Part shown: positions 21,528-48,590 of the stretch, piece by piece | Position numbering within the stretch: the stretch's first letter is position 1 | How the letters are laid out: each line of letters starts with the position of its first letter | Origin: Candidatus Parcubacteria bacterium | GTDB taxonomy: Bacteria > Patescibacteriota > Saccharimonadia > UBA4664 > JBIOIQ01 | Length of the DNA stretch: 64,000 nucleotides | Direction of reading: 5' to 3' | NCBI GenBank assembly: GCA_963718875.1 | Contig: OY970378.1 | Coordinates: 260,396 to 324,395, forward strand | Position numbers and translations under genes: made by a program | The notes under the pieces: generated by a model | The model's database searches: none | What the model was told of the DNA's origin: nothing | What the model saw: only the letters and a program-made list of their open reading frames with translations

Positions 21528-21600
21528 TCTAGTATATTTTGCTACAAACTTGAGCTCAATTCAAGCATGAGCAATTTAGTTGTTCATTTTCCGACAAAAC
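21528..21600. promoter_or_regulatory. Module B (bidirectional promoter module GTATATTTTGCTACAAA...CAAGCATGAGCAATTTAGTTGTTCA), solo copy
   Basis: Same sequence as 27316-27372 and 39300-39335. Confidence 0.5.
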
Positions 21601-21757
21601 TTTTGAAGCTTAAAAAATATAAGATTAATGCTTGAAGCGAAAATCATAGTCGCAAGTATTCTCTTAACCCATACCATTCCGTTTTTTGGAGCAAGGCTAG
21701 CGCTGATATAGCCGCCAATTATTGAACCTAACGATAGGTTGAAGGCTGATAGGTGGG

Positions 21758-22708
21758 TTAACTAACAATTTTCAAATGATTATTTATAACTAAATCAGCT
21801 AAAGCCTTGATAAATAAGAGGTCAACATTGGGGAGCTCTATTCGATGGTAGCCGATGTTTGCGTTGCTGGCTTGTTCCGCCGCTGCGATGTCGAGGTCAT
21901 ACAGCACCTCGAGATGATCGGACAAAAATTGGATTGGTACAACTAATACAGCTGGAACCTCTTGCGCGCTAAGTGTGTTTAAAACATCTTGTAGATCTGG
22001 CTTTAGCCATTCTTCCGGTGTGTGACCAGCACTTTGATATGCCGCCACCCAGTCGTCGTCATCAAGGCCAGCCTTCCTAACAATAGCCGCAATGGTTTGC
22101 CGTAACTGTTGCAAATACCCCGGATCACGTTTTACTACACTCTTGGGTAAACTGTGGGTGCTAAAGATTATGGGAACTGGCCCCGCGTAACGAGCTGCCA
22201 GTTCTGCTCGAGATGAGACTAATCGCTCAGATAGCAGTTGGATAAATTTTGGCTGATTTGGCCAAGGTCCAATTACCTGGTAATCCTTGATTCCGGCCTC
22301 GGCCGCCGCATGGGCTAAAGCTTGTTCGTAGCCGCTCATTATGATGCTCGAATACTGCGGAGACAGTAATAAGCCAATAACTTTTGTACAGCCGGCTTGG
22401 GCTAAGTTGATTACGGCATTATCGATATAAGGGGCAGAGTGCAGCATGCCGGCTTTAACAATGTAGGCATTTTGCCCGCATCGCTTTTTTAGCTCAAGTT
22501 CAAGGGCGTGGGCCTGTGCTGTAGTTATCTCAACGAGAGGTGATGATCTGATAAGGTCAAACCGCCGCTTGAATTCGTTGATTACACTTGCAGGAGGCGT
22601 AATGCGATAAACGTGGGTCAAAAAATCAGGCACATCACGGGCGGTGGTGGCCGAGCCGTAGGTCATCATTACCACCCCAATCGGGCTAGACTCAGTGGGT
22701 GTGGACAT
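21758..22708 (-). CDS. hemH: Ferrochelatase (probably coproporphyrin ferrochelatase)
   Basis: Ferrochelatase blocks (MMTYGS..., FSTHSLP, QSAGHTPEEWLKP, SDHLEVLYDLD). Confidence 0.85.
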   Translation of the reverse strand: MSTPTESSPIGVVMMTYGSATTARDVPDFLTHVYRITPPASVINEFKRRFDLIRSSPLVEITTAQAHALELELKKRCGQNAYIVKAGMLHSAPYIDNAVINLAQAGCTKVIGLLLSPQYSSIIMSGYEQALAHAAAEAGIKDYQVIGPWPNQPKFIQLLSERLVSSRAELAARYAGPVPIIFSTHSLPKSVVKRDPGYLQQLRQTIAAIVRKAGLDDDDWVAAYQSAGHTPEEWLKPDLQDVLNTLSAQEVPAVLVVPIQFLSDHLEVLYDLDIAAAEQASNANIGYHRIELPNVDLLFIKALADLVINNHLKIVS

Positions 22709-23717
22709 AGTCGACGAGTCGTTTTAGCATCTCAGGTTCAGCCTGCTTGTAAACGCCATGGCCCAGATTAAAAATGTAGCCGTTGCGGGAGCTGAGCGAG
22801 GCGAGTATTTGATCAGTCTTAGCCGTGATTGTGGCGAAACTGCTTGTAAGTACGGCTGGATCCAGATTGCCTTGGATAGCTTTAGTACCTGCAAATAATT
22901 TTTGGGCCGCATCAATATCTACGCGCCAATCAAGGCCTACTACTTCACAGTCAACAGATGCAAAGTCGTTCAGAATTGACCCGGTGTCGGTACCAAAAAT
23001 AATCCGCGGCACCTTACATCTGGCCAGCGCGTCCATGATCCGGCGGTTATATGGTAAGACATTTTCCCGAAAATCGGCTCCCGATAAGCAGCCCACCCAA
23101 CTGTCGAATAATTGGAGAGCTTGTGCTCCGGCTTTGACTTGTTCCTCGAGGTAAAAAATTATACTGGAAGTGAGCTTTTCCATAAGTTGGCTCCATAGTT
23201 TTGGCTGGTTGTACATAAATTGCTTGGTCGCAAACCAGTCTCTGGTAGGTTTACCTTCAATCAGATAGCTAGCTAGGGTAAACGGCGCCCCTGAAAAGCC
23301 AATCAATGGGACGGTTAGCTCGCGCCTCACTAGCTTGATAGTCTGCGTTAGGTAATCAATTTCGCTGGAGCCAAAATTTTGCATAGCCTCAATATCTCTT
23401 TTATTCCGTATCGGATGGTTAATTATCGGGCCGACCAAATCCACAATCTTCACATCAACGCCCATGGCAATCGGCACCAGCATTATATCGGCAAACAAAA
23501 TGGCAGCATCTACCCCTAAATAATCGACCGGCTGCATAGTGATCTGGGCAGCTAGCTCCGGAGTTTGGGTTAGGGTTAGCATCTCGTATTTCTCGCGCAA
23601 CTTGCGATATTCGGGCATGTAACGTCCCGCCTGGCGCATAAACCAAACTGGCGTATAATCGGTCGATTCCCGGCGGCACGCCCGCAAAAAAGTATCGTTA
23701 AATGTGGCTACAGGCAT
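22692..23717 (-). CDS. hemE: Uroporphyrinogen decarboxylase
   Basis: TDYTPVWFMRQAGRYMPEYR N-terminal signature. Confidence 0.85.
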   Translation of the reverse strand: MPVATFNDTFLRACRRESTDYTPVWFMRQAGRYMPEYRKLREKYEMLTLTQTPELAAQITMQPVDYLGVDAAILFADIMLVPIAMGVDVKIVDLVGPIINHPIRNKRDIEAMQNFGSSEIDYLTQTIKLVRRELTVPLIGFSGAPFTLASYLIEGKPTRDWFATKQFMYNQPKLWSQLMEKLTSSIIFYLEEQVKAGAQALQLFDSWVGCLSGADFRENVLPYNRRIMDALARCKVPRIIFGTDTGSILNDFASVDCEVVGLDWRVDIDAAQKLFAGTKAIQGNLDPAVLTSSFATITAKTDQILASLSSRNGYIFNLGHGVYKQAEPEMLKRLVDYVHTH

Positions 23718-24376
23718 TCGAGCAACTCGACGATTGGCTTATAGATGCAGGTAAATGTGGGCTGGTCATTCTCGGTATAGCGTCGCACCTCAGTTGAGCG
23801 TAGAGCTATCACCAAATCCTGGAACTCTTCTAAGCTTGGCGCCTCATATGAAACGATAAATTCTTGGTCATCCACTCCATAGCTATAAAGTAAACACTGT
23901 CGAACGGTAGGATGCTTTATGCCAACCATAATGTGGGCTTTCATCAGGGCGGCCCGGGTCTCGAAACTAAGAAAGTACCAATCAATAGTTTTGGTAAATG
24001 GGTAAATTATAAGATACGACAGCGGTTGGCCAGGCTTAATAACTTGTTCGGGTGCCTGGGGGGTGCGGCTGTATTGCGACTGACGGATCATGCCAAACAT
24101 AGTTCGGTTGAGTTTAAGCCACTGACCCAGTTTAGTTTTCCATAAACTCTTGAGCAGCGCTTGAACAGCTTCGGGTTGGTCGCTACGGCACCAAAACACC
24201 AGATCACTATCCGGTTTAAAGCCGCGCGAGAGATAGGCGGTTACGCTAATGCTTTTTTGACCCTGGAACCATTTAACAAAGTCGGCTTTTATCACGATTT
24301 GTTCTTTATCTGGCAAACCATAAAATTTCGGCTTAAGTTTAAAGAACAGATAGTGGTGGTAAGGTTGCTTTTCCAT
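23708..24376 (-). CDS. hemQ: Coproheme decarboxylase / chlorite-dismutase-family HemQ
   Basis: Cld-family fold motifs; position between hemE and hemD. Confidence 0.7.
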   Translation of the reverse strand: MEKQPYHHYLFFKLKPKFYGLPDKEQIVIKADFVKWFQGQKSISVTAYLSRGFKPDSDLVFWCRSDQPEAVQALLKSLWKTKLGQWLKLNRTMFGMIRQSQYSRTPQAPEQVIKPGQPLSYLIIYPFTKTIDWYFLSFETRAALMKAHIMVGIKHPTVRQCLLYSYGVDDQEFIVSYEAPSLEEFQDLVIALRSTEVRRYTENDQPTFTCIYKPIVELLECL

Positions 24377-24392
24377 ACTTATTTATACTAGC

Positions 24393-26790: not shown

Positions 26791-26825
26791 GTCGAGGTTA
26801 ATCGCTAGTATTAATTAGCTTTTTA

Positions 26826-26860
26826 TAAAGTGAAAACCCCGCTGGATGCGAGGCTCACCA
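26826..26860. repeat. Module G (ATAAAGTGAAAACCCCGCTGGNTGCGAGGCTCAC), copy 1 of 2
   Basis: Copy at 38403-38437. Confidence 0.5.
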
Positions 26861-26902
26861 TTACAGTGATGCTCGCCCCCAGCGGGGCAGTTGGTAGGAC
26901 GC

Positions 26903-27277: not shown

Positions 27278-27315
27278 GCCGCCTACTTTCGGGTGGAGGA
27301 CGGAAACAAGATCCG

Positions 27316-27420
27316 GTATATTTTGCTACAAAAGTAAGCTCAATGCAAGCATGAGCAATTTAGTTGTTCAGTAACATAACCGAGATATGTTTGACAAAAT
27401 GTGTGTATTGTGATAAAATG
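27316..27420. promoter_or_regulatory. Module B with sigma70-like promoter TTGACA(27391)-17 bp-TAAAAT(27414) and leader hairpin CTGACGAAAGTCAG
   Basis: -35/-10 hexamers read directly; drives 27546..27965 (+); minus-strand 26903..27277 starts on the other side. Confidence 0.55.
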
Positions 27421-27545
27421 AAGCCATTCTGACGAAAGTCAGCGCTCCTTATGTGCAGTTGGATCTTTCGTGTTTGTTGGTGCCTAATTGGTTTCACTAG
27501 GTGAAGCTGGCTATGCATCAGCAATCGACAACGAAAGGAAAGCTC

Positions 27546-31281: not shown

Positions 31282-31318
31282 GTTGAACCCATTATACATG
31301 ATAATAATCATTGATATA

Positions 31319-31360
31319 GGTGGGCTGATTAACGATTTTCGAACGGTTTTAGCCTCGTAA
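31319..31360 (+). repeat. A repeat (pseudo-tRNA-Asp 3' end) copy
   Basis: GGTGGGCTGATTAACGATTTTCGAACGGTTTTAGCCTCGTAAAGC. Confidence 0.7.
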
Positions 31361-31418
31361 AGCAAAGCGCCCTCCATACTGGCAGGGCGCCGAGCGTGGA
31401 GGGCGATGGTGGCTGGGG

Positions 31419-31724
31419 CTACCGATGTAACTCAAAGTCCGTGCCTTTCAGAAGGCTTTCCGCCGCCGAGAAGCAATGGGGAGCATTCCTCACAGGTTGA
31501 CCCGCGAGAACACTCGCCAACGCCTGAGCCGTCATCTGCAGGGCTCCTTGCAAGCTGTGAAGAGGCTGTACCGGCATCACTTCGAACTTCTCGCTGAGGG
31601 GATTGTGGCATTGCCCTTGCTCTGACGCGTTGGGAGCGGGGCAGGTGAGCAGGTCTTCCTCGTCGACCGAGATGAGACCGTGGGTGGTGCACTCCCTGAC
31701 CGGCCAACACCTATCAGCGTCCAT
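31419..31724 (-). CDS. Cassette protein of the WPVREC-THGLISVDE paralog family (copy 1)
   Basis: N-terminus RCWPVRECTTHGLISVDEEDLLTCPAP matches 44849..45226 (RSWPVRECNTHGLISVDEQDQTTCPAP). Confidence 0.5.
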   Translation of the reverse strand: MDADRCWPVRECTTHGLISVDEEDLLTCPAPNASEQGQCHNPLSEKFEVMPVQPLHSLQGALQMTAQALASVLAGQPVRNAPHCFSAAESLLKGTDFELHR

Positions 31725-38347: not shown

Positions 38348-38402
38348 AGGCGGTGTTTTAATAAGATATATCTAAACTGCTATGAGCACAAGAATTCTGC
38401 AT

Positions 38403-38437
38403 TATAAAGTGAAAACCCCGCTGGTTGCGAGGCTCAC
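38403..38437. repeat. Module G, copy 2
   Basis: Matches 26826-26860. Confidence 0.5.
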
Positions 38438-38497
38438 TTTGCGGGTGATTCTTGCTTTTGCGGGGTGTTTGTGACGGTCTGACCGTCGTGTTGCGAA

Positions 38498-38935
38498 CTA
38501 CGTCGGGTCGATTCTGGCCTTTGCGTATCTACGGCCGTACTCCTCGGCGCCACTCAGGACTTCGGCGATGTGGGGGTCTTTATCCGACAGCCTTTCCAGA
38601 TGGAGCTTCACGGTGTCTCGTGCGTTGGTCTGATTGACGAACCATTCCACGCACCTCACCCGCGCCTTGTCGCTGTCGGCGGTGATGATATCGCCCTCAC
38701 GAGGTGGGATGGGGAAGCCGTTGACTGGGTAGGGGTCATCCGTCAGACGAGGATCCTGCCCGATAAGCGGCAACAACCACAAGCATGGGTACCTGCTGCC
38801 GCCCTCCACGATCCATTCCACCTGCGCCACGATGTAGGTGAACTCGGCGATGTGGAAGATGTCACCCCTAGAGGGAACTGCATCCATCTCACGGGTACCG
38901 GCACTATATCCGGTTGTGGTATCAACTCTCATCGG
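38498..38935 (-). CDS. Hypothetical cassette protein (start MRVDTTTGY), overlapping operon with 38922..39260
   Basis: GC-rich; 14-bp overlap with upstream ORF. Confidence 0.35.
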   Translation of the reverse strand, partial: PMRVDTTTGYSAGTREMDAVPSRGDIFHIAEFTYIVAQVEWIVEGGSRYPCLWLLPLIGQDPRLTDDPYPVNGFPIPPREGDIITADSDKARVRCVEWFVNQTNARDTVKLHLERLSDKDPHIAEVLSGAEEYGRRYAKARIDPT

Positions 38936-39260
38936 AGGCTCCTGTCTCGGCTTTCTTCTGCCATGCAGAGAGGGCGCAAGCGAGAAGGTAGTCTGCAAGG
39001 ACGGCAGCCATTGGGGTGCTCGTTTGAGGAATTTCCACGGGTACTCCGGCTTTGTTGTCTGCTTCGACTAACTCACGGATGAGATCCCACCGCTCGTCGT
39101 CGGTCAAAAAACGAAGAGCCAGAATTGCAGGTCCGTTGTCGGGATCGGGGTGACTGTGGCCACGGGCTTTGATCTCTTGGGCTTTGGCCATCAAGGCTTC
39201 GAGGTGTTGTCCCATTATATTCAAACCTCTGTCTCCACCGGATGAGAGCGCACCGGTCAA
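38922..39260 (-). CDS. Hypothetical cassette protein
   Basis: GC-rich. Confidence 0.35.
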   Translation of the reverse strand: MTGALSSGGDRGLNIMGQHLEALMAKAQEIKARGHSHPDPDNGPAILALRFLTDDERWDLIRELVEADNKAGVPVEIPQTSTPMAAVLADYLLACALSAWQKKAETGASDES

Positions 39261-39299
39261 CGCATTCAGAACGAATTGACAACTATACTATTTAATCCT

Positions 39300-39420
39300 G
39301 CTTAATGCAAGCACGAGCAATTTAGTTGTTCAATAATATAACCGAGAAAGTATTTACAAAGCAAGAAAATGCAAGCAGGGAAGTTTACGTGTCCTAATTC
39401 AATGGCAGCTTCAGCGAGCT
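39300..39420. promoter_or_regulatory. Module B copy upstream of parB-like gene
   Basis: CAAGCACGAGCAATTTAGTTGTTCAATAATATAACCGAGAAAGTATTTACAAAGC. Confidence 0.5.
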
Positions 39421-39652
39421 CAATGCTGCGGTGGAAGCTGTATGGGTGATAGCACTTTTTGTATTGTTTGATTATTGGTACACTGTGCGTGAGATCAAGG
39501 TGTTTCCAATTTTGCTCATGCTTATGTAATATAGAAATATCCTTTGTACGCTTCAAATAAGTACCAACTTCGCCTTGGCAGATTGGGCATTAATTGTTAA
39601 CGCTCAGCCTGCCGAGAGTCCGGACCGTCCGGACACGCGGAGGAGGATTGAT

Positions 39653-40390
39653 ATGACTGGACTTCGCGTAGTAAAGGATGACGCGCAGGTCAAGCCTGGT
39701 ACTGAGTTCTTTGAGCTGCCACTGGACCTATTGGTCATTGGCGATGACTTCAGGCTAGACGAGGATCTTGAGAGTCTGCAAGCGTTGGCTGAATCAATTG
39801 CGGAACTGGGAGTGTTACAACCGTTACTGGTGCGGGCGAAGGGGGAGGTTTGGGAAGTGGTGGCTGGTCGTCGTCGTCTGGCGGCATCCCGCATGGCCAA
39901 CCTGGAAACCGTGCCGTGTATTGTGGTCAATTCCACTGCAGATCGACCGCTTGATGCTACTTTGGCGGAGAACTTGCATCGCCGCAACTTGTCTCCGATT
40001 GAAGAAGCTCTGGCGTATGCTCGCTTAAGAGATGGAGACGGATTGAACCAGAGACAGATTGCGGATCGCGTGCGCCGCTCCCAGTCACATGTGTCAATGC
40101 ACCTGCGTCTTTTGGATCTATCCGCTGAGGTACAAACCGCGGTCCATCAAGGCAAGCTTTCTTACGTTACGGCCCTTAGGGGACGTAATCGGCCCGGTGG
40201 GCGGGAAGGGGGAGCGGACATCAAGCCGCTTTACGGTGATGAAGGAGCCCTGGCTTCTCATTGGCGTCGCCGTCACGATAGACTGATGACGGCTCTCACG
40301 GTTCTGCTCAGGGCACATCCCGCGAACGTTGCGGAATATCGCCAAATGATTGAGCGGGTAAGAAAGCTGGACGCAAAGCCGCTAGCCTAG
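39653..40390 (+). CDS. ParB/Srx-fold N-terminal-domain protein with HTH (ParB-like nuclease/DNA-binding protein), stand-alone
   Basis: LQPLLVRAKGEVWEVVAGRRRLAASRMANLETVPCIVV...QRQIADRVRRSQSHVSMHLRLL; RBS GGAGGAGG; no parA nearby. Confidence 0.55.
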   Translation: MTGLRVVKDDAQVKPGTEFFELPLDLLVIGDDFRLDEDLESLQALAESIAELGVLQPLLVRAKGEVWEVVAGRRRLAASRMANLETVPCIVVNSTADRPLDATLAENLHRRNLSPIEEALAYARLRDGDGLNQRQIADRVRRSQSHVSMHLRLLDLSAEVQTAVHQGKLSYVTALRGRNRPGGREGGADIKPLYGDEGALASHWRRRHDRLMTALTVLLRAHPANVAEYRQMIERVRKLDAKPLA

Positions 40391-40516
40391 GCGGTATCTA
40401 TGGGTTACGGGGCGGGAAGACCATCTGGTTTTCCCGCTACCGGGCCCTTTTTTAGTTTGCCATGAAGTTATTAATCTATTTCAAAAAGCCCTCACATAAG
40501 GGTGAGGCATTTGCAT

Positions 40517-40562
40517 TGGCGGGAGCTGATTAACGATTTTCGAACGGTTTTAAACTCATAAA
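40517..40562 (+). repeat. A repeat copy (full length)
   Basis: TGGCGGGAGCTGATTAACGATTTTCGAACGGTTTTAAACTCATAAA. Confidence 0.75.
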
Positions 40563-40613
40563 CGCGTTGCGCCCCCAAGCTGAGCAGGGACGCGCGGCGT
40601 GAGGGCGGCGATA

Positions 40614-41195
40614 CTAGAAGCGACTAGGTTTCTTTCGCTTGGCGAAGCGAGGGAAGAACCGGGGGGTTGTAGCTTTATATTTCCTGTACGCATTTCCGAA
40701 GCGCTTTTCCAAGATCTTTTCCTCTTGAGGGACGCGCAAGAAGAATAGGAGAAAAGGGATTGAGTTTCCAAGGGTAGCAACCCAATTGGCGGATACGATG
40801 CCGAACCCGAGGGCAATTATGCCGTACCCGACGTATATCGGATTACGCACGAAATGATACGGCCCATGTGTAACTAGTTGGTGCTTTTTGTTCAGCCCTA
40901 CGCCGCCAACAAAGTTTTTGCCTATGGCTCTCCTACTGTAAATAACAAGCTGGAGCCCGCCGCAAAAGAACAATGCTGCTACAAATCGCCAGGCTGTTCC
41001 ATGCACGGGGAGGTTGGCAAACTCTAACCAGGTTGGATAGAGGTAAAAGATGGTTGTAGTGACGCAGGCGATGCAGATGGAGCATCCGATAATCAGTTCG
41101 CGGAATGGTACTCCTTGCGGCCTTCTGTGTAGTCTATGCGCTATAACAAGGAAGATTGCAAGCTCAAAAGCAGGCAAAGCATAGTGTGCGAACAC
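40614..41195 (-). CDS. Isoprenylcysteine carboxyl / phospholipid methyltransferase family membrane protein
   Basis: HQLVTHGPYHFVRNPIYVGY...EEKILEKRFGNAY matches the C-terminal SAM-binding region of ICMT/PEMT. Confidence 0.55.
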   Translation of the reverse strand: MFAHYALPAFELAIFLVIAHRLHRRPQGVPFRELIIGCSICIACVTTTIFYLYPTWLEFANLPVHGTAWRFVAALFFCGGLQLVIYSRRAIGKNFVGGVGLNKKHQLVTHGPYHFVRNPIYVGYGIIALGFGIVSANWVATLGNSIPFLLFFLRVPQEEKILEKRFGNAYRKYKATTPRFFPRFAKRKKPSRF

Positions 41196-41284
41196 AGCGA
41201 CTCCAGTATGGTCGAGGGATAACTTATTATATCATAAATGTGATTTTAGAACGAAAGTAGCGATGATTACTCGGTTTAATAACG

Positions 41285-41337
41285 AAAAAGGCCCACGGGG
41301 TTGGACCGAAATGGTCTCTTCCGTGGGCTGTTGCCCA
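41285..41337. repeat. Module D hairpin/terminator, copy 2
   Basis: Matches 19199-19250. Confidence 0.65.
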
Positions 41338-42027
41338 TTATGAGGAGGGCGGGATCTCTTTGTATAGCTCCCAACGCTGGTGCCGCTTGCCAGACAACGT
41401 GAGTCCGGATCGGCCGAGAGCTTCACGAATTGCTTCGAAGCGGTCGAGAGCTTTCTGAACAACTCGCTCAGTTCGACCGTACCCAGCAAGCATCAGCCTG
41501 CAAACGGTGAACTCATCAAGTTCCGTCAGTGCTTCGACCGTGGTGATCCCAGCGTCGAGGATCAGTTGGAGCGCGACCTGTGCGTCATGCGATCCGGCCA
41601 GACTAAGACCCTGCAGTGCGTGAGCGCGGGGATGAGGGGAAATCAGCAGCGGTGCTTCCATGCGATTGAGGTTTTCGAAGTAACTGTTGGCCCATGTTAT
41701 CGCTCGACGTCCAATCTCCTCCAGGAAGTCGTCAATAAGGTGGGTCATTGCTCCGCATGAATTGCAGTATCCGGTCCTTCTCTGGCTCCGCGGGTTAACG
41801 GCGATGTCGGACTGCTCGACTGGCGAGCCGGGGCTGGCGGGCTCGAAGTAGGTGCCTTTGAGTTGTCCCACGATGTATGCACCGAGGGTGACACGACTTC
41901 CTCTAGATCCGCTGGGGCATCCAGCATGGCAGGTGACCTGCGGGGATGCGTAGACAAGTCCTTCGCCGTCGGGCTGGTCGCTTTGACGGGAGAAGTGAAC
42001 GTGAAGGAGTCTCTGTCGACGACTCAT
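41338..42027 (-). CDS. Hypothetical cassette protein with C-terminal helix-hairpin-helix-like segment
   Basis: GC-rich; RBS GGAAAGGTGG; LILDAGITTVEALTE...LAGYGRTERVVQKALD. Confidence 0.35.
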   Translation of the reverse strand: MSRRQRLLHVHFSRQSDQPDGEGLVYASPQVTCHAGCPSGSRGSRVTLGAYIVGQLKGTYFEPASPGSPVEQSDIAVNPRSQRRTGYCNSCGAMTHLIDDFLEEIGRRAITWANSYFENLNRMEAPLLISPHPRAHALQGLSLAGSHDAQVALQLILDAGITTVEALTELDEFTVCRLMLAGYGRTERVVQKALDRFEAIREALGRSGLTLSGKRHQRWELYKEIPPSS

Positions 42028-42175
42028 GATGTTACCACCTTTCCAAGTGGTTGGGGGAACGCTTCAAGTATCCAAGAAGCTTTATTAACTATAACATACT
42101 TCAGCAATAAAAACAAGTTATCACAAAAAGAAACAAAAAGAGACTCCGAAAAGTCTCATTTAAGCATAAGTACTA

Positions 42176-42208
42176 TGGCGGGAGCTTATTAACGATTTTC
42201 GAACGGTT
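42176..42208 (+). repeat. A repeat copy fused directly to module B
   Basis: TGGCGGGAGCTTATTAACGATTTTCGAACGGTT then ...AACCGAGATAAGTTTGACA. Confidence 0.75.
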
Positions 42209-42214
42209 ACGGCT

Positions 42215-42300
42215 CAAGCTTAACCGAGATAAGTTTGACATAACGTAAGAATTATGATAAGATGAAGCGATTCTGACGAAAGTCAGCGCTCCTCTCCTGC
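42215..42300. promoter_or_regulatory. Module B promoter TTGACA(42235)-17 bp-TAAGAT(42258) plus leader hairpin CTGACGAAAGTCAG
   Basis: About 85% identical to 27380-27450. Confidence 0.55.
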
Positions 42301-42339
42301 GAGTTGGAATTGGCATTTAGGTAAGTAGGCAAAAAGTAG

Positions 42340-43023
42340 TTGCTTGAATGCCAAGTCCAAATACAGGAGGTATCCGAAATGACAAAGACAATGACCGGCC
42401 CCCAGACCCTCGACGCATTGATTCAGAACTGGTTCATGCTGAGCGATGCCCATTTCATCTCCGTCCTTGGTGACGGCGAGCAGGCACATGAGCTTCTTGA
42501 AGCACTCGACTGCATCGATGAGTCCATCCGCGCCTGCATTGCTCGCGATATCAGACTTGTGCTTGACAACGAGCTGCTCCTCACCAATGAGCGTGTTTGG
42601 CGGTTGCTCTACCACGGAGAAAAGTTAGTAGACGCCATGCTCATGCAGGACTCAGTCCCACGCTTGGCATGGAGTTATGCGCTCAAGTATGTACCTCGAC
42701 GACGCATCCAGGTAGCCGACAGATTGATCGCTGACGGTCAATCCCGGATGCTTCACATAATCGCCCGGATGGTTCCGGAGCGGGCGCGGCTAGCGTGGGA
42801 GATGCTCTGGGGAGGGCCGAGCAATCCTTCCCTGAACACGATCTTGTCGATCGCTAAGGCAAACCCCATGTTCCGTGCCGAAGTCGCCCAGATGCTGCTC
42901 GAGGGTTACCCAAGGGACCGAATTAGTGCCAAATCCATGGCGTGGGTCAGGCGCTACGGCGAGCCTGCTCAACGTTTGGAGGCAGAAGCTCAGCTCGAGC
43001 GTCTGAAGGCTGACCCTCGCTAA
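42340..43023 (+). CDS. Hypothetical 227-aa cassette protein
   Basis: GC-rich; followed by module E. Confidence 0.4.
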   Translation: MLECQVQIQEVSEMTKTMTGPQTLDALIQNWFMLSDAHFISVLGDGEQAHELLEALDCIDESIRACIARDIRLVLDNELLLTNERVWRLLYHGEKLVDAMLMQDSVPRLAWSYALKYVPRRRIQVADRLIADGQSRMLHIIARMVPERARLAWEMLWGGPSNPSLNTILSIAKANPMFRAEVAQMLLEGYPRDRISAKSMAWVRRYGEPAQRLEAEAQLERLKADPR

Positions 43024-43065
43024 CCGTTCCTCTGAACCGCGCCGCTGGTCGTTCCCAACCTGCAC

Positions 43066-43338
43066 AGCCTCGCCGTTCACCTCCATGGTGGGCGGCGGGG
43101 CCGATTCCCAAGTCAATTTATGTAAGTTGGTTTAGGAATCGAAAAAAGCTGGGCTCGACCCTTCGATAAACTCAGGGTAAACCGGATACGGGCTTGACTA
43201 CGTCAACCCTGGCTGCCCGATCGGTCACAGTGCTCCCTCGGGCTAGTCGAACCGGCAGAAGATCGCCGATTCGAATATTCGCTAGCGCTCATCAAGAAAA
43301 GCCGACAACCACAAGGGTCATCGGCTTTTCTTGGCGGG
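43066..43338 (+). repeat. Composite block: module E hairpin, tail (i), about 190-bp segment carrying an inverted partial tRNA-Asp copy (GAACCGGCAGAAGATCGCCGATTCGAA) and hairpin GAAAAGCCGACAACCACAAGGGTCATCGGCTTTTC, ending in TTGGCGGG. Duplicate of 49074-49324
   Basis: Alignable throughout with the block abutting the real tRNA-Asp; 24-bp indel at 43160-43183. Confidence 0.7.
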
Positions 43339-43377
43339 AGCTTATTAACGATTTTCGAACGGTTTTAGCCTCATAAA
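43332..43377 (+). repeat. A repeat copy (full length), occupying the position the tRNA-Asp 3' end occupies in the 49.3-kb copy of the block
   Basis: TGGCGGGAGCTTATTAACGATTTTCGAACGGTTTTAGCCTCATAAA. Confidence 0.8.
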
Positions 43378-43427
43378 TGACGAAAGCTCCCAAACAGGCG
43401 AACTTTCGTTGGCTGCTTGAGAGCTGA

Positions 43428-43913
43428 TCAAACCCTTGAATGGGCGTTCCAGACGGGAGTGCGTACTTCAGAACTCTCTACCTGGAATGCTTCCATCAAG
43501 GCCAGGATATTGCGTCCCCATTGAGTAGTGCGGTCCAGCTCCTCCAAGTACTGCGAAGCTTTGCGGGTGCCAGCATTGACCTCGGCGGTGAGTTTTGCAT
43601 GAGTCGCGAGAATGTCCTGGATGATCAGCTGGATGGCTTCCTTCTGCGACATGTCGCAGGCTTCAGCGAGACGTTGGCACATGTCGAGAAAATCCTCGAA
43701 GGGCGCATCCATGCTTCTCACGACCGTCCCATCGTCTGGTATGTAGGACTCATTGCTGTCACGCGTGGCGCCAGCAGCCAGGTTCCAGGTAATGGCAGCG
43801 AGGTTCTTTGGATTTACGCCATCGCTGCGGATCCCTAGCGGATGCCAAAAACCCCGCAAGTCAAACTGTGTCATGACGATGGCACGGTCGATATTGGGCC
43901 TGAAAAAGGGCAT
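43428..43913 (-). CDS. Hypothetical cassette protein (start MPFFRPNIDRAIV, RBS GGAGG)
   Basis: GC-rich. Confidence 0.4.
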   Translation of the reverse strand: MPFFRPNIDRAIVMTQFDLRGFWHPLGIRSDGVNPKNLAAITWNLAAGATRDSNESYIPDDGTVVRSMDAPFEDFLDMCQRLAEACDMSQKEAIQLIIQDILATHAKLTAEVNAGTRKASQYLEELDRTTQWGRNILALMEAFQVESSEVRTPVWNAHSRV

Positions 43914-44180
43914 AGTATTGCCTCCAAGGTAGGTACGAGTAGGGCTTGGATCTATGCGGCACATAATATCATAAAATAAACAAAATGGCAATAATTTTAA
44001 CCTGAGCCACCAGCACAGAGGATGGCTTTCTATATCTCGTTCACTTTGAGATAAGCAAACAAATAGCTTAAGTAAGCAATAATAAAAGTTAACTTTTTAT
44101 AGGGTTGTTGCTACTGGAAATTCACAAGTCACCTCTTTAACGCTATGATTCAATTACGTCTTGCGATCTAGGAGGTCGTC

Positions 44181-44600
44181 ATGAAGTCCCTACTGTTTAA
44201 TCAATGTCCAAAGCCGGATGTAAACGGCCGGGTTCCGCTAGGTGGCGAGAGACTTGCCCAAATCGATAGCTACACAGTCAAGATCGATACGGCTTCTGGC
44301 TGGTGGGTGTTGGGTTGCATCGCCTTCACTCTGGTGTGCGCTGCTCTTGCCGCCCTTTTATCTCCAATTAGCGGAGACCTTCGCTGGATGTTCTTAATCG
44401 GTGGGGTCATCTTGGGGATGGGCGCATGTTGCGGTCTCTTCGCTGCTGTAGTGGCAGCAGACTATCGTGAGCATGTCAGAAAAGGCGGCCGGGTAGAATA
44501 TATGTCTCATCCATACCCCCATTTGCTCACCTGCGTGGGGCTAGGACGAGATACCAAAGACCCTTACGGCAGGAGGTGGCCAGGGCCGAAATCGGCCTGA
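44181..44600 (+). CDS. Small membrane protein (cassette, divergent from 43428..43913)
   Basis: RBS AGGAGG; two TM. Confidence 0.4.
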   Translation: MKSLLFNQCPKPDVNGRVPLGGERLAQIDSYTVKIDTASGWWVLGCIAFTLVCAALAALLSPISGDLRWMFLIGGVILGMGACCGLFAAVVAADYREHVRKGGRVEYMSHPYPHLLTCVGLGRDTKDPYGRRWPGPKSA

Positions 44601-44848
44601 GATGATGTTAAAAAGCCTGGACGGGGTGGAGGGCTAAGTGCCTCCTGTCCAGGTTAGCGGCCGGGAGAAATTCCGGCCTTTTGTATTGCTGGCGCGTTAC
44701 GTCAACATGGAGGACCAGGTTAGAACTTATTTTATGGTTATTTGAGCATATAAAAGGTGAAACCCCGCCAGAATCAGCGAGGCCACCTTGGAAGATGGTA
44801 CTGATCTTGACGGGGCTGTGGCTTGTAAGTGCTCCCGGTCTGGCTGCT

Positions 44849-45226
44849 CTAGTTCGGATTAAAGATGCGCTTGATGAGCCCGACTGCCCAGAAGGGTGGG
44901 CTTAGCAGAAGACTCAGCCAGATCAATCCCTCCCACCAGACCATCTTTACATCTTCTTCGTAATCGTAAACCAGCTCGGTGAGTACGCCCATGCCGACGA
45001 GCCAGCCGCAGATGAAGAGCAGAAAGGCGAAGATGGCGATTCCATCTCCGGTGCTCAGGTTCTGCTTTCCCGATGGGGAAAAGACTTCGAACCTCTTGCT
45101 CAGTTTCATTCCGCACATGCCGCTGCCTGAGCTGGATGGGGCAGGACATGTGGTTTGGTCTTGTTCGTCGACGGATATGAGTCCGTGGGTGTTGCACTCG
45201 CGAACCGGCCAGCTACGTACTTGCAT
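44849..45226 (-). CDS. WPVREC-THGLISVDE paralog family (copy 2) with C-terminal TM extension
   Basis: Shared N-terminal 35 aa with 31419..31724; promoter TTGACT-16 bp-TATTAT about 60 bp upstream. Confidence 0.5.
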   Translation of the reverse strand: MQVRSWPVRECNTHGLISVDEQDQTTCPAPSSSGSGMCGMKLSKRFEVFSPSGKQNLSTGDGIAIFAFLLFICGWLVGMGVLTELVYDYEEDVKMVWWEGLIWLSLLLSPPFWAVGLIKRIFNPN

Positions 45227-45377
45227 TTGGATTCTCCCGTAGTAGGGCAGAGCGCTTAGATGCGCTTCGCTTGATGACTTGCAGAGATTACGTATGATAA
45301 TAGCATTTTTTTATAAAAAGTCAATCGAAATTAAATAAACAAACAAAAAAGAGGCTTCGTAAAGCCTCAATAATTGC

Positions 45378-45406
45378 ATGGCGGGAGCTTATTGATGATT
45401 TTCGAA
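45378..45406 (+). repeat. A repeat copy (left half)
   Basis: TGGCGGGAGCTTATTGATGATTTTCGAAC. Confidence 0.7.
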
Positions 45407-45497
45407 CTACAGCTGCATTATAAAATGACGATGCCCCCAAAGATGCCTTGCGGCGTCCGAGGGGGCAGTTCGTCAGTCGAGCGAAGGAGCGGCCTTA

Positions 45498-45794
45498 TCA
45501 AGAGGCAATGACGGTGTAGTGGATGCGATGCCAGAGGCCTGTTTTGTAGGGCAGGATGCCCGCATCGTTCAGGTAGAGGCGCTCGGGGGAGCCGGGGTGA
45601 CCAACTTCTCTGACCATGACGAACGGCGCTTCTTCGGTTTCTACGCCGCTGACGATTTCGAACTTCATGCCGCCGTGGAATCGCGTGTCATGTCGTCGGA
45701 TGATGGTTCCTGGTGTGAGGAGGTAGAGATCGTCGGGCCCGAGAGCACCGGGGTGTTGCGGTCGGACGTCGGTAAGATCGGGGTCGGCTCTCAT
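45498..45794 (-). CDS. Hypothetical 98-aa cassette protein
   Basis: GC-rich. Confidence 0.35.
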   Translation of the reverse strand: MRADPDLTDVRPQHPGALGPDDLYLLTPGTIIRRHDTRFHGGMKFEIVSGVETEEAPFVMVREVGHPGSPERLYLNDAGILPYKTGLWHRIHYTVIAS

Positions 45795-45928
45795 CGTTGA
45801 CTTTTATTCGGCTGACGGATGTACTGATGCATTTTCGCACCATTAATGTTGATTATAGCATAAGCATGATAATAAGTCAATAATCTTGATTACATAACAA
45901 AAATAGGCAAGACCTTAATAAGTATTAT

Positions 45929-45980
45929 TGCGGGAGCCTGTTTGCCGACAGGCAGGCTAATTAACGATTTTCGAACCGTT
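45929..45980 (+). repeat. A repeat copy interrupted by a 20-bp hairpin insert (GCGGGAGC-CTGTTTGCCGACAGGCAGG-CTAATTAACGATTTTCGAACCGTT)
   Basis: Read directly. Confidence 0.65.
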
Positions 45981-46041
45981 TACTCGGTTTAATAACGGAA
46001 AGAGCCCCCAGGCAGAGGGATTTCCGTATTGCTTGAGGGCT

Positions 46042-47495: not shown

Positions 47496-47507
47496 CGTAA
47501 GCAGCAC

Positions 47508-47630
47508 AGCCTCGCCGTTCACCCTAGGGTGGGCGGCGGGGCCGATTCCCAAGCCCGTTAACGCAAGTTAATTGGCTTAGTAGTCGAAAGACTGATTTAC
47601 ATTCCCACAACCGCTCTGAAAGGAGCAACC
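47508..47630 (+). repeat. Module E hairpin plus promoter/leader module (ii) (...TTAACGCAAGTTAATTGGCTTAGTAGTCGAAAGACTGATTTACATTCCCACAACCGCTCTGAAAGGAG) running into the next start codon
   Basis: Near-identical copy at 48467-48590; related copy at 59640-59736. Confidence 0.65.
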
Positions 47631-47996
47631 ATGCTGAATTCTGTCGCCCGAGCCTCCCAGGCACTGGCAATCTGGCGCATCGCCGAAACCGGAGTCACCA
47701 ATGAGACGGACAACCGGGCCGATCTGAAAGGAGCGGTAGTACAAGCCCATCAGCAGTTCTTGCAGGCGGCCTACGACGTCGCCTTTGAACTGGTCCCCTT
47801 GCTTCTGAAGCACGGGGAAGTAGTCGCCAAGACTACAGTTCGCTACTCGGCTACTCCGGCCAACGGCGGCTTCGTACTGCAGGCGATGTCCGAAGACGAT
47901 CCCGGCATGCCGCTGAATCCCAACTCGCACGTCGAGCGGATACTCCAGCTCATGGTCGACCTGACGGAGCTGCTCGAGATCCTAGGGGTAGAGTAA
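47631..47996 (+). CDS. Hypothetical 121-aa cassette protein
   Basis: Stop overlaps start of next ORF (ATGA-type coupling). Confidence 0.4.
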   Translation: MLNSVARASQALAIWRIAETGVTNETDNRADLKGAVVQAHQQFLQAAYDVAFELVPLLLKHGEVVAKTTVRYSATPANGGFVLQAMSEDDPGMPLNPNSHVERILQLMVDLTELLEILGVE

Positions 47997-48454
47997 TGGA
48001 GTGCCCCAATTGTGGAGAGTCTGGACAGCCCGGTCATCACTGGTTGGCTGGGCAAGGATACGTCTGCTTCAACAAAGATGGGGGAGACGACGTTCCTCCT
48101 CCTGATATCCAGCTCTCGAAAGGAGCGGTAATGCCAGACACCGATGAGGTCCGTGTTTCGGATCTCCACCAGAGCTGTACTTTCAACGTCATCTACCATC
48201 CCACGAGCAACAGTCCGCTCTGTAACAAGCCCGCTACGTCGTTGGTGATGGTGACCGACGCTCCGCGCGTAAGCCAGCCGCCCAAGTGGCGGTGCGACGA
48301 GCACGAGGGCATGGTCAGCAGAGACGAGCGAGGAGAAGTTGTCACAGCCATGCCGCGTGAGCTGGCGGATTCGTTGACAGATCGCAGGCTTGGCAAGCCT
48401 GGCAACCCCATCCGGGCTTGGCTCGACATGCCGCCCCACGATGAGCCGTACTGA
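47996..48454 (+). CDS. Zn-ribbon (CPNCGESG...) cassette protein
   Basis: N-terminal CxxC plus downstream Cys/His. Confidence 0.4.
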   Translation: MECPNCGESGQPGHHWLAGQGYVCFNKDGGDDVPPPDIQLSKGAVMPDTDEVRVSDLHQSCTFNVIYHPTSNSPLCNKPATSLVMVTDAPRVSQPPKWRCDEHEGMVSRDERGEVVTAMPRELADSLTDRRLGKPGNPIRAWLDMPPHDEPY

Positions 48455-48466
48455 TCGCTTGTAGCA

Positions 48467-48590
48467 AGCCTCGCCGTTCACCTTCTGGGTGGGCGGCGGG
48501 GCCGATTCCCAAGTCTGTTAACGCAAGTTAATTGGCTTAGTAGTCGAAAGACTGATTTACATTCCCACAACCGCTCTCGAAAGGAGCATC
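48467..48590 (+). repeat. Module E plus promoter/leader module (ii), copy
   Basis: As 47508-47630. Confidence 0.65.

What the first reader, a model, noticed from the sequence alone, without database searches (positions are those of the whole stretch)
21528..48590. Cassettes are built from a small vocabulary of shared promoter and terminator modules attached to unrelated ORFs
Unrelated ORFs are flanked by the same short sequence modules. Module B is a bidirectional promoter block (...CAAGCATGAGCAATTTAGTTGTTCAATAATATAACCGAGAAAGTATTTGACAAA... with TTGACA-17 bp-TAnnAT and a CTGACGAAAGTCAG leader hairpin); copies are at 21528, 27316, 37960 (partial), 39300, 42215 and 46640. Module (ii) is a promoter/leader ending in CTCTCGAAAGGAG immediately before the start codon, at 47553, 48513 and 59640. 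Module E is a long GC hairpin AGCCTCGCCGTTCACCT-nnnn-GGTGGGCGGCGGGGC, with five copies whose stems are conserved but whose 4-nt loops differ (TAGG, CCAT, TAGG, TCTG, CCGG). Module D (19199, 41285), module F (20995, 26290), module G (26826, 38403), module H (34912, 44685) and the C hairpins abutting every A repeat complete the set. The same module flanking different cargo suggests either modular recombination or a cassette backbone that supplies expression signals to captured genes.
Basis: seen in the sequence. Interest (0 to 1): 0.8.

Follow-up and report, generated by a model that had tools for sequence, protein, structure and literature searches.

The report
Shared promoter/terminator parts in cassette island
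In a tiny (about 1.2 Mb) Saccharimonadia (candidate phyla radiation) genome, a 30-kb island next to the tRNA-Asp gene consists of small self-contained gene units that reuse a few promoter, leader and hairpin sequences around unrelated, compositionally foreign genes, which points to an undescribed cassette-style route of gene gain in these bacteria.

Summary
Copies are 78-98% identical, and similarity drops to background within 150 nt on both sides. Adjacent ORFs are unrelated. All copies share one orientation, and all lie in 19.2-49.3 kb except one (ii) copy at 59.6 kb, which also sits beside GC-shifted ORFs.

The window belongs to a ~1.19-Mb genome whose relatives are labelled Saccharimonadia. 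The region is a hypervariable island ending at the 3' end of tRNA-Asp(GUC). Nine co-oriented 45-nt 'A' repeats divide it into cassettes. Intact A copies end in the same 7 nt (CCCGCCA) as the tRNA.

By sequence features the modules are:
- intrinsic terminators (the C hairpins, D, G);
- a divergent sigma-70-type promoter block (B);
- a double hairpin fused to a promoter/leader/RBS (E plus ii).

Three other genomes have A repeats beside tRNA-Asp, and one of them shares B-left and other island segments with different cargo.

My best reading is a pool of small expression cassettes added at tRNA-Asp and reshuffled through their shared non-coding parts. No recombinase was found, expression is untested and the rest of the genome could not be read. 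I rate it a new variant of known kinds (tRNA-anchored islands, integron-like arrays, phage PeSL cassettes).

The parts
49318..49394 (-). tRNA-Asp(GUC), the anchor of the island. Its 3' end (CCCGCCA) faces the island.
   Evidence: ARAGORN; Rfam. The same tRNA sits next to A repeats in L003, L004 and L007.
31314..45983 (-). Array of nine co-oriented 'A' repeats. On the + strand the consensus reads TGGCGGGAGCTKATTAACGATTTTCGAACGGTTTTAGC. Copies are at 31314-31354, 32106-32142, 33390-33429, 34869-34906, 40512-40553, 42171-42213, 43329-43370, 45375-45416 and 45943-45983. They are the probable cassette boundaries or attachment sites.
   Evidence: A2 and A5-A8 carry the 7 nt TGGCGGG that is also the reverse complement of the tRNA-Asp 3' end; A9 has a variant of it. 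The duplication 43062-43338 / 49070-49324 ends exactly at that 7-mer.
49137..49317 (-). Flank X. It holds the tRNA-Asp terminator hairpin, an inverted copy of the tRNA 3' half and a degenerate tRNA 3'-end copy. It is duplicated at 43128-43338, where it joins repeat A7.
43128..43338 (-). Second copy of flank X, at the start of cassette IV. It is 96% identical to the first copy over the last 158 nt.
32071..32094 (-). T2 ('C') hairpin next to A2. On the - strand it is a canonical intrinsic terminator (stem plus U-tract). Equivalent hairpins are at 40490-40507, 42140-42157, 43297-43331, 45351-45368 and 49283-49317.
   Evidence: Terminator scan; folds. They have the same style as the terminators of tRNA-Thr and tRNA-Gly.
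41275..41343 (-). Module D, a T1-type hairpin followed by U-rich TTTTTCGTT on the - strand. Other copies are at 19190-19258 and 45988-46042. The same architecture (GC hairpin plus UUUAUGAG) lies just upstream of A1, A3, A5, A7 and A8, and in the 'D18' pair at 34131-34194 and 37360-37423.
26823..26890 (-). Module G, a hairpin plus UUUUCACUUUAU after the gene at 26903-27277. The second copy, at 38402-38470, follows the unrelated gene at 38498-38998.
20987..21105 (-). Module F, holding the last ~15 codons (INQLCGPxRIPxxQ*) plus a GC hairpin without a U-tract. The second copy is at 26288-26406. The two copies bracket the heme-synthesis operon.
27306..27374 (-). B-left, a - strand promoter block (TTGAGC-17-TATACC or TTGCAT-17-TATAGT) placed in front of unrelated - strand genes. 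Other copies are at 21522-21590, 37946-38004, 39234-39336 and 46628-46730. The last two also share a ~50-nt leader.
   Evidence: A 68%-identical copy in L004 (3769-3873) precedes a different gene.
27377..27463 (+). B-right, a + strand promoter (TTGACA-17-TAAAAT with a TG extension) plus a leader hairpin. Other copies are at 42221-42308, 46722-46799 and 39339-39412 (degenerate).
   Evidence: The hexamers are conserved while the spacer varies.
47502..47589 (+). Module E, a double hairpin. P1 has 15 bp including 3 G.U pairs that exist only on the + strand. P2 is CGAUUCC...GGAAUCG. E lies 12-45 nt after + strand stop codons. Other copies are at 27992-28075, 43061-43145, 48464-48549 and 49068-49153.
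   Evidence: The + strand folds better (-46.4 vs -34.4 kcal/mol).
48502..48593 (+). Module (ii), the E tail followed by TTGGCTTAGTAGTCGAAAGACTGATTTACA and an RBS hairpin (GCTCTCGAAAGGAGC) just before the ATG. Other copies are at 47542-47633 and 59640-59736. A 13-nt RBS fragment is at 48113-48125.
34907..34963 (.). Module H, a non-coding segment immediately to the right of A4. The second copy is at 44681-44736. Its function is unclear.
37216..37365 (-). A gene-end fragment 97% identical to 26885-27034, the 3' end of gene 26903-27277. It is fused to a D18 terminator copy (37366-37419, which matches 34138-34190 at 98%). I read it as a recombination scar.

Best explanation
The window comes from a ~1.19-Mb genome of the Saccharimonadia (CPR/Patescibacteria). 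Positions ~19.2-49.3 kb are a hypervariable island anchored at the 3' end of tRNA-Asp(GUC).

The tRNA-proximal 18 kb is an array of at least nine small cassettes (0.6-5.6 kb). Read on the tRNA strand, a typical cassette has these parts in order:
2. one to six genes with their own sigma-70-type promoters;
3. a second terminator (T1: hairpin plus UUUAUGAG);
4. the 45-nt A repeat, whose last 7 nt equal the tRNA's 3' end.

I infer that cassettes are added at the tRNA end by site-specific recombination, with the crossover in the shared 7-mer and a recombinase encoded elsewhere. Older cassettes are pushed inward, where they decay.

The 'vocabulary' (B, E+ii, D, F, G, H, C) is the non-coding backbone of this cassette pool. 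It makes each unit an autonomous transcription unit, like a phage moron. The pieces are shared because cassettes descend from a few backbones. I also infer that the 50-280-nt homologous pieces let ordinary recombination swap, duplicate and delete the cargo between them, as shown for PeSL cassettes of T4-type phages.

Shown here: the repeats, their orientation, their boundaries, their anatomy, their cross-genome occurrence and the compositional foreignness of the cargo.
Inferred: transcriptional activity, the recombination mechanism and its enzyme, and the direction of growth of the array.
For: Modules and cargo:
- The modules are real and discrete, with abrupt boundaries.
- The cargo ORFs are unrelated to one another.
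- Most module-flanked ORFs scanned have no Pfam, PHROGs or PADLOC match.

Orientation and location:
- Every copy of every family, and all nine A repeats, lie on the same strand.
- All lie in 19.2-49.3 kb except one (ii) copy.

Anatomy:
- T2, D and G are hairpins with U-tracts on the - strand, like the terminators of the real tRNAs.
- B carries good -35/-10 hexamers with variable spacers on both strands.
- E folds as a + strand-specific double hairpin just after + strand stop codons.
- (ii) ends in an RBS hairpin 5-8 nt before the ATG.

Recurrent unit designs with different inserts:
- B-right -> ORF -> E, three times.
- (ii) -> ORF(s) -> E, twice.
- B-left is paired with F, G, D or D18.

Array logic:
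- The duplicated tRNA flank joins A7 exactly at TGGCGGG.
- A copies far from the tRNA have lost the core, and none remain beyond 31 kb.
- ORF GC3 falls with distance from the tRNA (rho -0.54, p=4e-4).

Other genomes:
- A repeats lie 0.4-3.3 kb downstream of tRNA-Asp in L003, L004 and L007, which share no flanking proteins with the window.
- The L004 island also has B-left, D18, the A1-type terminator and flank X, next to non-homologous ORFs.
- The L007 cassettes carry a RelE/ParE-type toxin pair.

Recombination scars: 37216-37419, and the A-less junction in L004.

Independent assembly: a short-read assembly of the same sample has contigs that break at the repeats, including one of 959 nt that matches the 960-nt E/(ii) spacing.
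Against: - No integrase or other recombinase domain was found in any ORF scanned, nor within 10 kb of the L007 array.
- Beyond the terminal 7 nt, A is no more similar to tRNA-Asp than shuffled sequence (488/2000 shuffles). The att-site reading therefore rests on one junction and on position.
- The distal 19-31 kb has modules but no A repeats.
- One (ii) copy lies outside the island, next to nrdR. Module spread therefore does not strictly need A or the tRNA.
- E and F lack U-tracts.
- Only one other genome (L004) shares modules other than A, and at 68-92% identity.
- There is no transcript, excision or population-variation evidence.
- The rest of the genome was not searchable, so a genome-wide distribution cannot be excluded.
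Confidence: 0.55

Rival explanations
1. The modules arose by local duplication and decay, with no mobile cassettes. The island grew by repeated segmental duplication of a few ancestral units. Cargo was later replaced or diverged beyond recognition, and gene conversion kept the short non-coding pieces similar.
For: - Some copies are nearly identical and local: 26885-27034 vs 37216-37365 at 97%, 34138-34190 vs 37366-37419 at 98%, and 43181-43338 vs 49167-49324 at 96%.
- F and E+(ii) carry bits of coding sequence.
- No recombinase was found.
- The distal half of the island has no A repeats.
Against: - Similarity falls to background within 150 nt on both sides of every module, while the intervening ORFs show no residual protein similarity.
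- Module-flanked ORFs are compositionally foreign (GC3 0.6-0.76 vs about 0.46 in core genes).
- The same island segments occur in L004 beside different ORFs, and A occurs beside tRNA-Asp in three further genomes with unrelated neighbours.
Confidence: 0.2
2. The modules are ordinary dispersed intergenic repeats (REP/BIME- or MITE-like) of this genome. They look island-specific only because a single 64-kb window was read.
For: - One (ii) copy lies at 59.6 kb, outside the island, next to nrdR.
- E, D, G and F are hairpins, as REP elements are.
- A true MITE-like element with 21-bp terminal inverted repeats exists at 24406-24577.
- The rest of the genome could not be searched.
Against: - There are several unrelated families, not fragments of one repeat.
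- All copies share one orientation.
- The modules have no terminal inverted repeats or target duplications.
- They contain promoter hexamers, leaders and ribosome-binding sites placed correctly for the adjacent genes.
- None occur in the other 33 kb of the window or in ~85 kb of core DNA of relatives, although those relatives are distant.
- The outlying (ii) copy also precedes GC-shifted ORFs.
Confidence: 0.1
3. Selection for common regulation keeps the modules similar. On this view they are operator, sigma-specific promoter or cis-regulatory RNA elements of a regulon, and mobility or recombination plays no part.
For: - The ~50-nt leader shared by 39234 and 46628, and the ~90-nt (ii) leader with its RBS hairpin, look like regulatory 5' UTRs.
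- An ECF sigma / anti-sigma pair lies 2 kb from the island.
Against: - No Rfam family matches, even at E<=5.
- Similarity covers terminators and gene 3' ends as well as promoters.
- Identity of 80-98% over 60-280 nt is far more than a binding site needs.
- This reading does not explain the A array, the uniform orientation or the recombination scars.
Confidence: 0.1
4. The repeats are an assembly or binning artefact, meaning a chimeric or collapsed region of a metagenome-assembled genome.
For: The source is probably a metagenome-derived genome, and repeats are where assemblies fail.
Against: - Independent short-read contigs from sample ERR12037361 carry the same genes in the same order and break at the repeats.
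- Comparable arrays exist in three other assemblies from other studies.
Confidence: 0.03

Closest known systems
PeSL (promoter-early stem-loop) mobile regulatory cassettes of T4-type phages (Arbiol et al. 2010, PMC2839356; PMC4122927)
   Same: - Short composite promoter-plus-stem-loop motifs repeat in one orientation between unrelated ORFan genes of hyperplastic regions.
- Each ORF becomes its own transcription unit.
- The shared motifs are proposed to be substrates for recombination that shuffles cargo.
- E+(ii) is such a hairpin-promoter composite.
   Different: - The host here is a cellular CPR genome, not a phage.
- Several distinct module families are involved rather than one motif.
- The array is also punctuated by a 45-nt repeat tied to a tRNA 3' end.
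- Mini-circles and promoter or terminator activity are not shown here.
tRNA-anchored genomic islands built by serial integration, e.g. tycheposon islands of Prochlorococcus (10.1101/2020.12.28.424599)
   Same: - The island sits at the 3' side of a tRNA gene.
- Repeats mark successive insertions, and older material appears to be pushed inward and to decay.
- The cargo is flexible, niche-type or unknown genes in a streamlined genome.
   Different: - No element-borne integrase or replication module was found.
- The units are 0.6-5.6 kb rather than several to tens of kb.
- The repeat shares only 7 nt with the tRNA, not the ~40-nt partial tRNA typical of those islands.
- True 17-24-nt tRNA-end copies are seen only in L007, and in degenerate form in flank X.
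Integron gene-cassette arrays
   Same: - A co-oriented array of small cassettes is separated by a repeated site.
- New units are inferred to enter at one end.
- The cargo is mostly unknown or accessory genes, with toxin-antitoxin cargo in a relative (L007).
- The recombinase is presumed to act in trans on cassettes that lack their own.
   Different: - No intI was found.
- A is not an attC. It has no R''/L''/L'/R' imperfect palindrome and no GTTRRRY core.
- The cassettes carry their own promoters and terminators instead of depending on Pc.
- The entry site is a tRNA 3' end, not attI.
Phage morons
   Same: Autonomous promoter-ORF-terminator units are inserted between other genes, and they often differ in base composition from their surroundings.
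   Different: Morons are single insertions in prophages. They are not arrays sharing a set of parts, and they have no boundary repeat.
REP/BIME and MITE-type intergenic repeats
   Same: They are short, repeated, hairpin-forming intergenic sequences.
   Different: - Here there are several unrelated families.
- All copies share one orientation.
- The pieces have promoter and RBS content.
- There are no terminal inverted repeats or target-site duplications.
- Within the DNA available, the copies cluster in one island.

Membership tests
Integron | An IntI-type tyrosine recombinase gene adjacent to the array | tested here: not met
   No Phage_integrase or other recombinase domain in the roughly 90 ORFs scanned across the window. 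A gene elsewhere in the genome cannot be excluded.
Integron | attC sites: 57-141-nt imperfect palindromes with RYYYAAC / GTTRRRY cores | tested here: not met
   The A repeat has neither core. Except for the A7/tRNA family, it has no inverted partner.
Integron | A co-oriented array of small cassettes separated by the recombination site | tested here: met
   Nine A repeats on one strand, spaced 569-5644 nt apart.
tRNA-targeted integrative island (tycheposon-like) | The island abuts a tRNA gene at its 3' side, and this is conserved across genomes | tested here: met
   tRNA-Asp(GUC) sits at the island end in the window. A repeats lie 0.4-3.3 kb downstream of tRNA-Asp in L003, L004 and L007.
tRNA-targeted integrative island (tycheposon-like) | Direct repeats that are partial copies of the tRNA (att sites) | tested here: inconclusive
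   A shares only the terminal 7 nt with the tRNA. The wider similarity is not significant. Genuine 17-24-nt tRNA-Asp end copies flank the L007 mini-cassettes. A 19-nt tRNA-Gly end copy exists at 54022-54040.
tRNA-targeted integrative island (tycheposon-like) | Element-encoded integrase (with or without a replication module) | tested here: not met
   None was found in the window island or within 10 kb of the L007 array.
PeSL-type mobile regulatory cassettes | A repeated composite of a sigma-70-like promoter and a stem-loop between ORFans of a hyperplastic region | tested here: met
   The E hairpin plus the (ii) promoter/leader occurs 3 times. B promoters and T1/T2 hairpins flank unrelated ORFs. 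This rests on sequence features only.
PeSL-type mobile regulatory cassettes | Demonstrated promoter and terminator activity, and recombination between motifs (indels between close relatives, mini-circles) | not testable with these tools
   No transcript data were available, and no closely related genome could be read. Scars at 37216-37419 and in L004 (4735-4760) are only suggestive.
PeSL-type mobile regulatory cassettes | Residence in a T4-type phage genome | tested here: not met
   The context is cellular (L25, NrdR, tRNAs, glycosyltransferases). There are no PHROG matches and no phage DNA similarity except to the tRNA.
REP/BIME/MITE | One repeat family dispersed genome-wide in both orientations; for MITEs, terminal inverted repeats and target-site duplications | tested here: inconclusive
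   Within the window there are several families, all copies in one orientation, and no terminal inverted repeats. The genome-wide distribution could not be tested.
Xer/dif modules (IMEX, pdif) | An 11-6-11 XerC/XerD-type site, located at the terminus or flanking modules in alternating orientation | tested here: not met
   A has no dif-like arms (by inspection). GC skew does not switch sign across the array. All A copies are direct repeats.

The most novel reading that the evidence does not exclude
Saccharimonadia carry a previously undescribed, integron-like gene-acquisition system. Ready-to-express mini-cassettes (own terminator, promoter, ORF, terminator) are assembled from a small shared parts list. 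A recombinase encoded elsewhere inserts them one after another at the 3' end of tRNA-Asp, through a 45-nt site that ends in the tRNA's last 7 nt. This could be a main route by which these ultra-small episymbionts take up and immediately express foreign, higher-GC genes.
Probability: 0.3. Interest if true: 0.85.

Novelty: new variant of a known kind. Interest (0 to 1): 0.62.

Why it matters
CPR/Patescibacteria have tiny genomes and few recognised mobile elements, yet horizontal transfer clearly shapes them. The routes are poorly known.

A tRNA-anchored array of self-expressing mini-cassettes with interchangeable regulatory parts would give a concrete, testable mechanism for gene gain. It would explain why short-read assemblies of these genomes break at this locus. 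It would also extend the idea of regulatory modules as recombination handles, so far shown for T4-type phages, to a cellular genome.

The conserved B and (ii) promoter/leader blocks and the T1, T2 and E hairpins are also candidate native expression parts for organisms that are only now becoming genetically tractable.

Tried and rejected
- Rfam, at gathering thresholds and at E<=5 over 18-50.5 kb and 59.4-64 kb, found only the tRNAs. The modules are not a known RNA family.
- Exact-pattern scans for A and E in IMG/VR found nothing, and the same was true in JGI metagenomes.
- A scan for the E/(ii) tail in IMG/VR gave one hit in a coding-like sequence with no hairpin. About six such hits are expected by chance, so I dismissed it.
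- The single GTDB genome scan, spent on A, gave three true loci and one chance hit.
- BLAST of 42.1-49.4 kb against phages and plasmids matched only the tRNA-Asp.
- I tested whether A is a tRNA-Asp 3' half. Apart from the last 7 nt the similarity is not significant, and A cannot form a T-arm.
- I tested whether A is part of a palindrome, like an attC or a folded CTX-type site. This holds only for A7 and the tRNA itself.
- A 9-codon mini-ORF inside A is not conserved among the copies, so I rejected it.
- I tested for covariation in E. The stems do not vary, so the result is uninformative.
- Core-neighbour proteins were used to fetch related arrays. The contigs of close relatives stop at the island (L005, L006). 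More distant relatives (L008-L010) have tRNA-Asp but no A.
- A search with an L004 ORF found nothing.
- Look-ups of island proteins found them only in the source genome and its own sample.
- PHROGs and PADLOC gave no function for the cargo.

Full report
**1. What the window is**

The window has about 47% GC and positive GC skew throughout. It carries three tRNA genes, all on the - strand: Asp 49318-49394, Thr 50298-50373 and Gly 54188-54261.

The protein encoded at 51733-53166 is on record on a 1,189,924-bp contig. Homologues of a neighbouring core protein in related loci are named Candidatus Saccharimonadia, Saccharimonadales or Patescibacteria by their sources. The gene order on the right side (glycosyltransferases, L25, NrdR) matches that of the Saccharimonadales loci L009 and L010. 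I conclude that the window is about 5% of a ~1.19-Mb genome of the Saccharimonadia (candidate phyla radiation).

**2. The observation**

Exact coordinates are in the parts list.

- Module identity is 0.78-0.98. The 150 nt on either side score 0.52-0.61, which is the random background of 0.55 +/- 0.03. The modules are therefore discrete blocks with abrupt edges.
- All-against-all BLASTP of the 277 ORFs of at least 50 aa finds almost no similarity among neighbours of the same module.
- All copies of all families, and all nine A repeats, lie on the same strand. The only inverted matches are hairpins.
- All copies lie between 19.2 and 49.3 kb except one (ii) copy at 59.6 kb.

Details needing correction are listed under the observation check.

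**3. Anatomy of the island**

Nine 'A' repeats occupy 31.3-46.0 kb. On the + strand the consensus is TGGCGGGAGCTKATTAACGATTTTCGAACGGTTTTAGC.

Read on the tRNA strand, A ends in CCCGCCA, which is identical to the last 7 nt of tRNA-Asp. A 255-277-nt block that forms the downstream flank of tRNA-Asp (49070-49324) is duplicated at 43062-43338. The two copies diverge exactly after TTGGCGGG, one continuing into the tRNA and the other into A7. This is the signature expected of a crossover within that 7-mer. Beyond those 7 nt, A is no more similar to the tRNA than shuffled sequence.

On the tRNA strand a typical unit has four parts in order:
1. It has the same A-tract/stem/U-tract style as the terminators of tRNA-Asp, tRNA-Thr and tRNA-Gly.
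2. Next come genes on either strand.
3. Then comes a second terminator, T1, a GC hairpin followed by UUUAUGAG or a similar U-rich tail. Module D, module G and the 'D18' pair are of this kind.
4. The unit ends with A.

No further A copies exist in the window. The 19-31 kb part therefore carries modules but no A.

**4. The individual modules**

- **B-left**, read on the - strand, carries TTGAGC-17-TATAC(T/C) or TTGCA(T/A)-17-(T/C)ATAGT. A leader, a ribosome-binding site and the start codon of an unrelated gene follow in each case. The 39234 and 46628 copies also share a ~50-nt leader.
- **B-right** carries TTGACA-17-TAAAAT/TAAGAT/TAGTAT, and most of its differences fall in the spacer.
- **E** is a double hairpin. 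P1 has 15 pairs, three of them T-G on the + strand. These form G.U wobble pairs in + strand RNA but would be A-C mismatches on the other strand. P2 pairs CGAUUCC with GGAAUCG.
  - The + strand folds better (-46.4 vs -34.4 kcal/mol; z -6.5 vs -2.3).
  - E begins 12-45 nt after the stop codons of + strand ORFs and has no U-tract.
  - The P1 stems are invariant except for one G.U-to-A-U change, while the loops differ. This gives no covariation signal.
- **(ii)** continues directly from E and ends in a small hairpin that holds the ribosome-binding site 5-8 nt before the ATG.
  - The copy at 59.6 kb has a different first hairpin but the same tail.
  - The RBS motif recurs at 48113, where an independent gene call starts a 107-aa gene.
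- **F** contains the last ~15 codons of two otherwise unrelated ORFs plus a hairpin.

The same designs recur with different inserts:
- B-right -> ORF -> E occurs three times (27.4-28.1, 42.2-43.1 and 46.7-47.6 kb).
- (ii) -> ORF(s) -> E occurs twice.
- B-left is combined with four different 3' hairpin modules (F, G, D, D18).

**5. Cargo**

Recognisable cargo includes:
- a heme-synthesis operon (hemC, hemD, a chlorite-dismutase-like gene, hemE, hemH; 21.7-26.3 kb), bracketed by direct copies of F and B-left;
- MEDS, cupredoxin-like, MASE1, glycoside hydrolase, CYTH, ParB-like, PEMT/ICMT and HbpS-like proteins.

Most module-flanked ORFs have no Pfam, PHROGs or PADLOC match.

Island ORFs average GC3 0.56, against 0.46 for flanking genes. 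ORFs next to a shared module average 0.62, against 0.52 for the other island ORFs (p=0.003). GC3 falls with distance from tRNA-Asp (Spearman -0.54, p=4e-4). The A copies farthest from the tRNA (A1, A3, A4) have lost the TGGCGGG core. These trends fit growth at the tRNA end and ageing inward.

**6. Other genomes**

In all three, A lies 0.4-3.3 kb downstream of a tRNA-Asp(GUC). None of them shares flanking proteins with the window.

- **L007** is the long-read genome behind L002. There the tRNA is followed by two or three mini-cassettes, one of them a RelE/ParE-type toxin pair. Each ends in A, a T2 hairpin, about 100 nt and a 17-24-nt copy of the tRNA-Asp 3' end.
- **L004** has at least two A copies plus B-left, D18, two copies of the A1-type terminator and flank X. 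All have the same orientation relative to the tRNA as in the window and lie next to non-homologous ORFs. One L004 junction has lost exactly the A core.
- No module occurs in about 85 kb of core DNA of relatives. Those relatives are distant, so this is a weak control.
- More distant relatives (L008-L010) have tRNA-Asp but no A.
- Short-read contigs of close relatives stop at the island. Contigs from the source sample break at the repeats. This argues against an assembly artefact.

**7. Interpretation**

The simplest account that covers all of this is a pool of small, self-contained expression cassettes that accumulates at the 3' end of tRNA-Asp. The shared modules are the cassettes' own boundary and transcription signals.

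A T2 terminator at the leading edge makes functional sense. Any insertion right after the tRNA separates it from its own terminator, so an incoming unit must bring one.

Three features fit recombination between the shared pieces, as demonstrated for PeSL cassettes in T4-type phages (PMC2839356):
- the free combination of promoter, cargo and terminator;
- the abrupt similarity edges;
- mosaic scars such as 37216-37419, a 3' gene fragment fused to a D18 terminator.

The accretion pattern resembles tRNA-anchored islands such as those built by tycheposons (10.1101/2020.12.28.424599), and the array form resembles integrons.

The island is a member of none of these. No integrase was found. A is not an attC and not a partial tRNA. 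The host is a cell, not a phage.

What remains inferred:
- the transcriptional activity of the modules;
- the recombinase and the crossover site;
- whether cargo is captured into a backbone or whole cassettes move;
- the genome-wide distribution.

The (ii) copy next to nrdR shows that at least this module is not restricted to the A array.

**8. Literature**

Three full-text searches combining Saccharibacteria or Patescibacteria with genomic-island, tRNA, integrase and mobile-element terms found no description of tRNA-Asp cassette arrays or shared regulatory modules in these bacteria. A 2025 study reports many genomic islands in Patescibacteria but does not mention tRNA, integrase or cassettes in its text.

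**9. Verdict**

The feature is best classed as a new variant of known kinds. It is of moderate to high interest, mainly because it offers a concrete and testable mechanism of gene gain in CPR bacteria.

Noticed in passing
window 53985-54261: The terminator hairpin plus the last 19 nt of tRNA-Gly (TGGAGCGAGTGACGGGAAT) are duplicated 166 nt downstream of the gene. The ~110 nt in between shares a motif (GGAGGTGGCGC..AG.CAC followed by the tRNA 3' end) with the short 'X' element found after tRNA-Asp in L007, L004 and the window. This suggests a small tRNA-end-targeting element or an att remnant at more than one tRNA.
   Followed up: partly
window 24406-24577: A 172-nt element with perfect 21-bp terminal inverted repeats sits between the chlorite-dismutase-like gene and hemD of the heme operon. 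It is MITE-like. No other copy exists in the window.
   Followed up: partly
window 10739-12849: Three ORFs with no Pfam match have elevated GC3 (0.55-0.78) in the otherwise ~0.44 left flank. This may be a separate foreign insertion. It carries none of the shared modules.
   Followed up: no
window 48113-48133: The 13-nt ribosome-binding motif of module (ii) plus an ATG lies inside the mechanical ORF 47996-48454. An independent gene call starts a 107-aa gene there, so the first 45 codons (a Cys-rich stretch) may be a separate or fused piece.
   Followed up: partly
window 31419-31724 and 44849-45226: Two cassette ORFs share a 46-aa Cys-rich N-terminal segment (65% identity) but have unrelated C-terminal parts. 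Modular shuffling therefore also occurs at the protein level.
   Followed up: no
window 61000-64000: About 3 kb has almost no ORF of 80 aa or more, has low GC (0.40-0.43) and has no Rfam match. It lies downstream of a gene for a 23S rRNA intervening-sequence protein.
   Followed up: partly
window 59640-60600: A two-gene unit (predicted membrane proteins, GC3 0.55-0.61) sits behind a hairpin plus module (ii), next to nrdR. It looks like a cassette inserted outside the tRNA-Asp array, without A repeats.
   Followed up: partly
L004 4856-5782: An ORF in the L004 tRNA-Asp island combines an Lsr2 dimerisation domain with sigma-70 region 4 and RNA polymerase alpha-CTD domains. Lsr2 is typical of Actinobacteria and their phages, so this hints at gene flow from the presumed hosts of Saccharibacteria.
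   Followed up: no
L004 4735-4760: The junction TGGCGG|ACTAATTTAG is an A site that has lost exactly its ~21-nt core. The flanking T1 terminator is intact.
   Followed up: no
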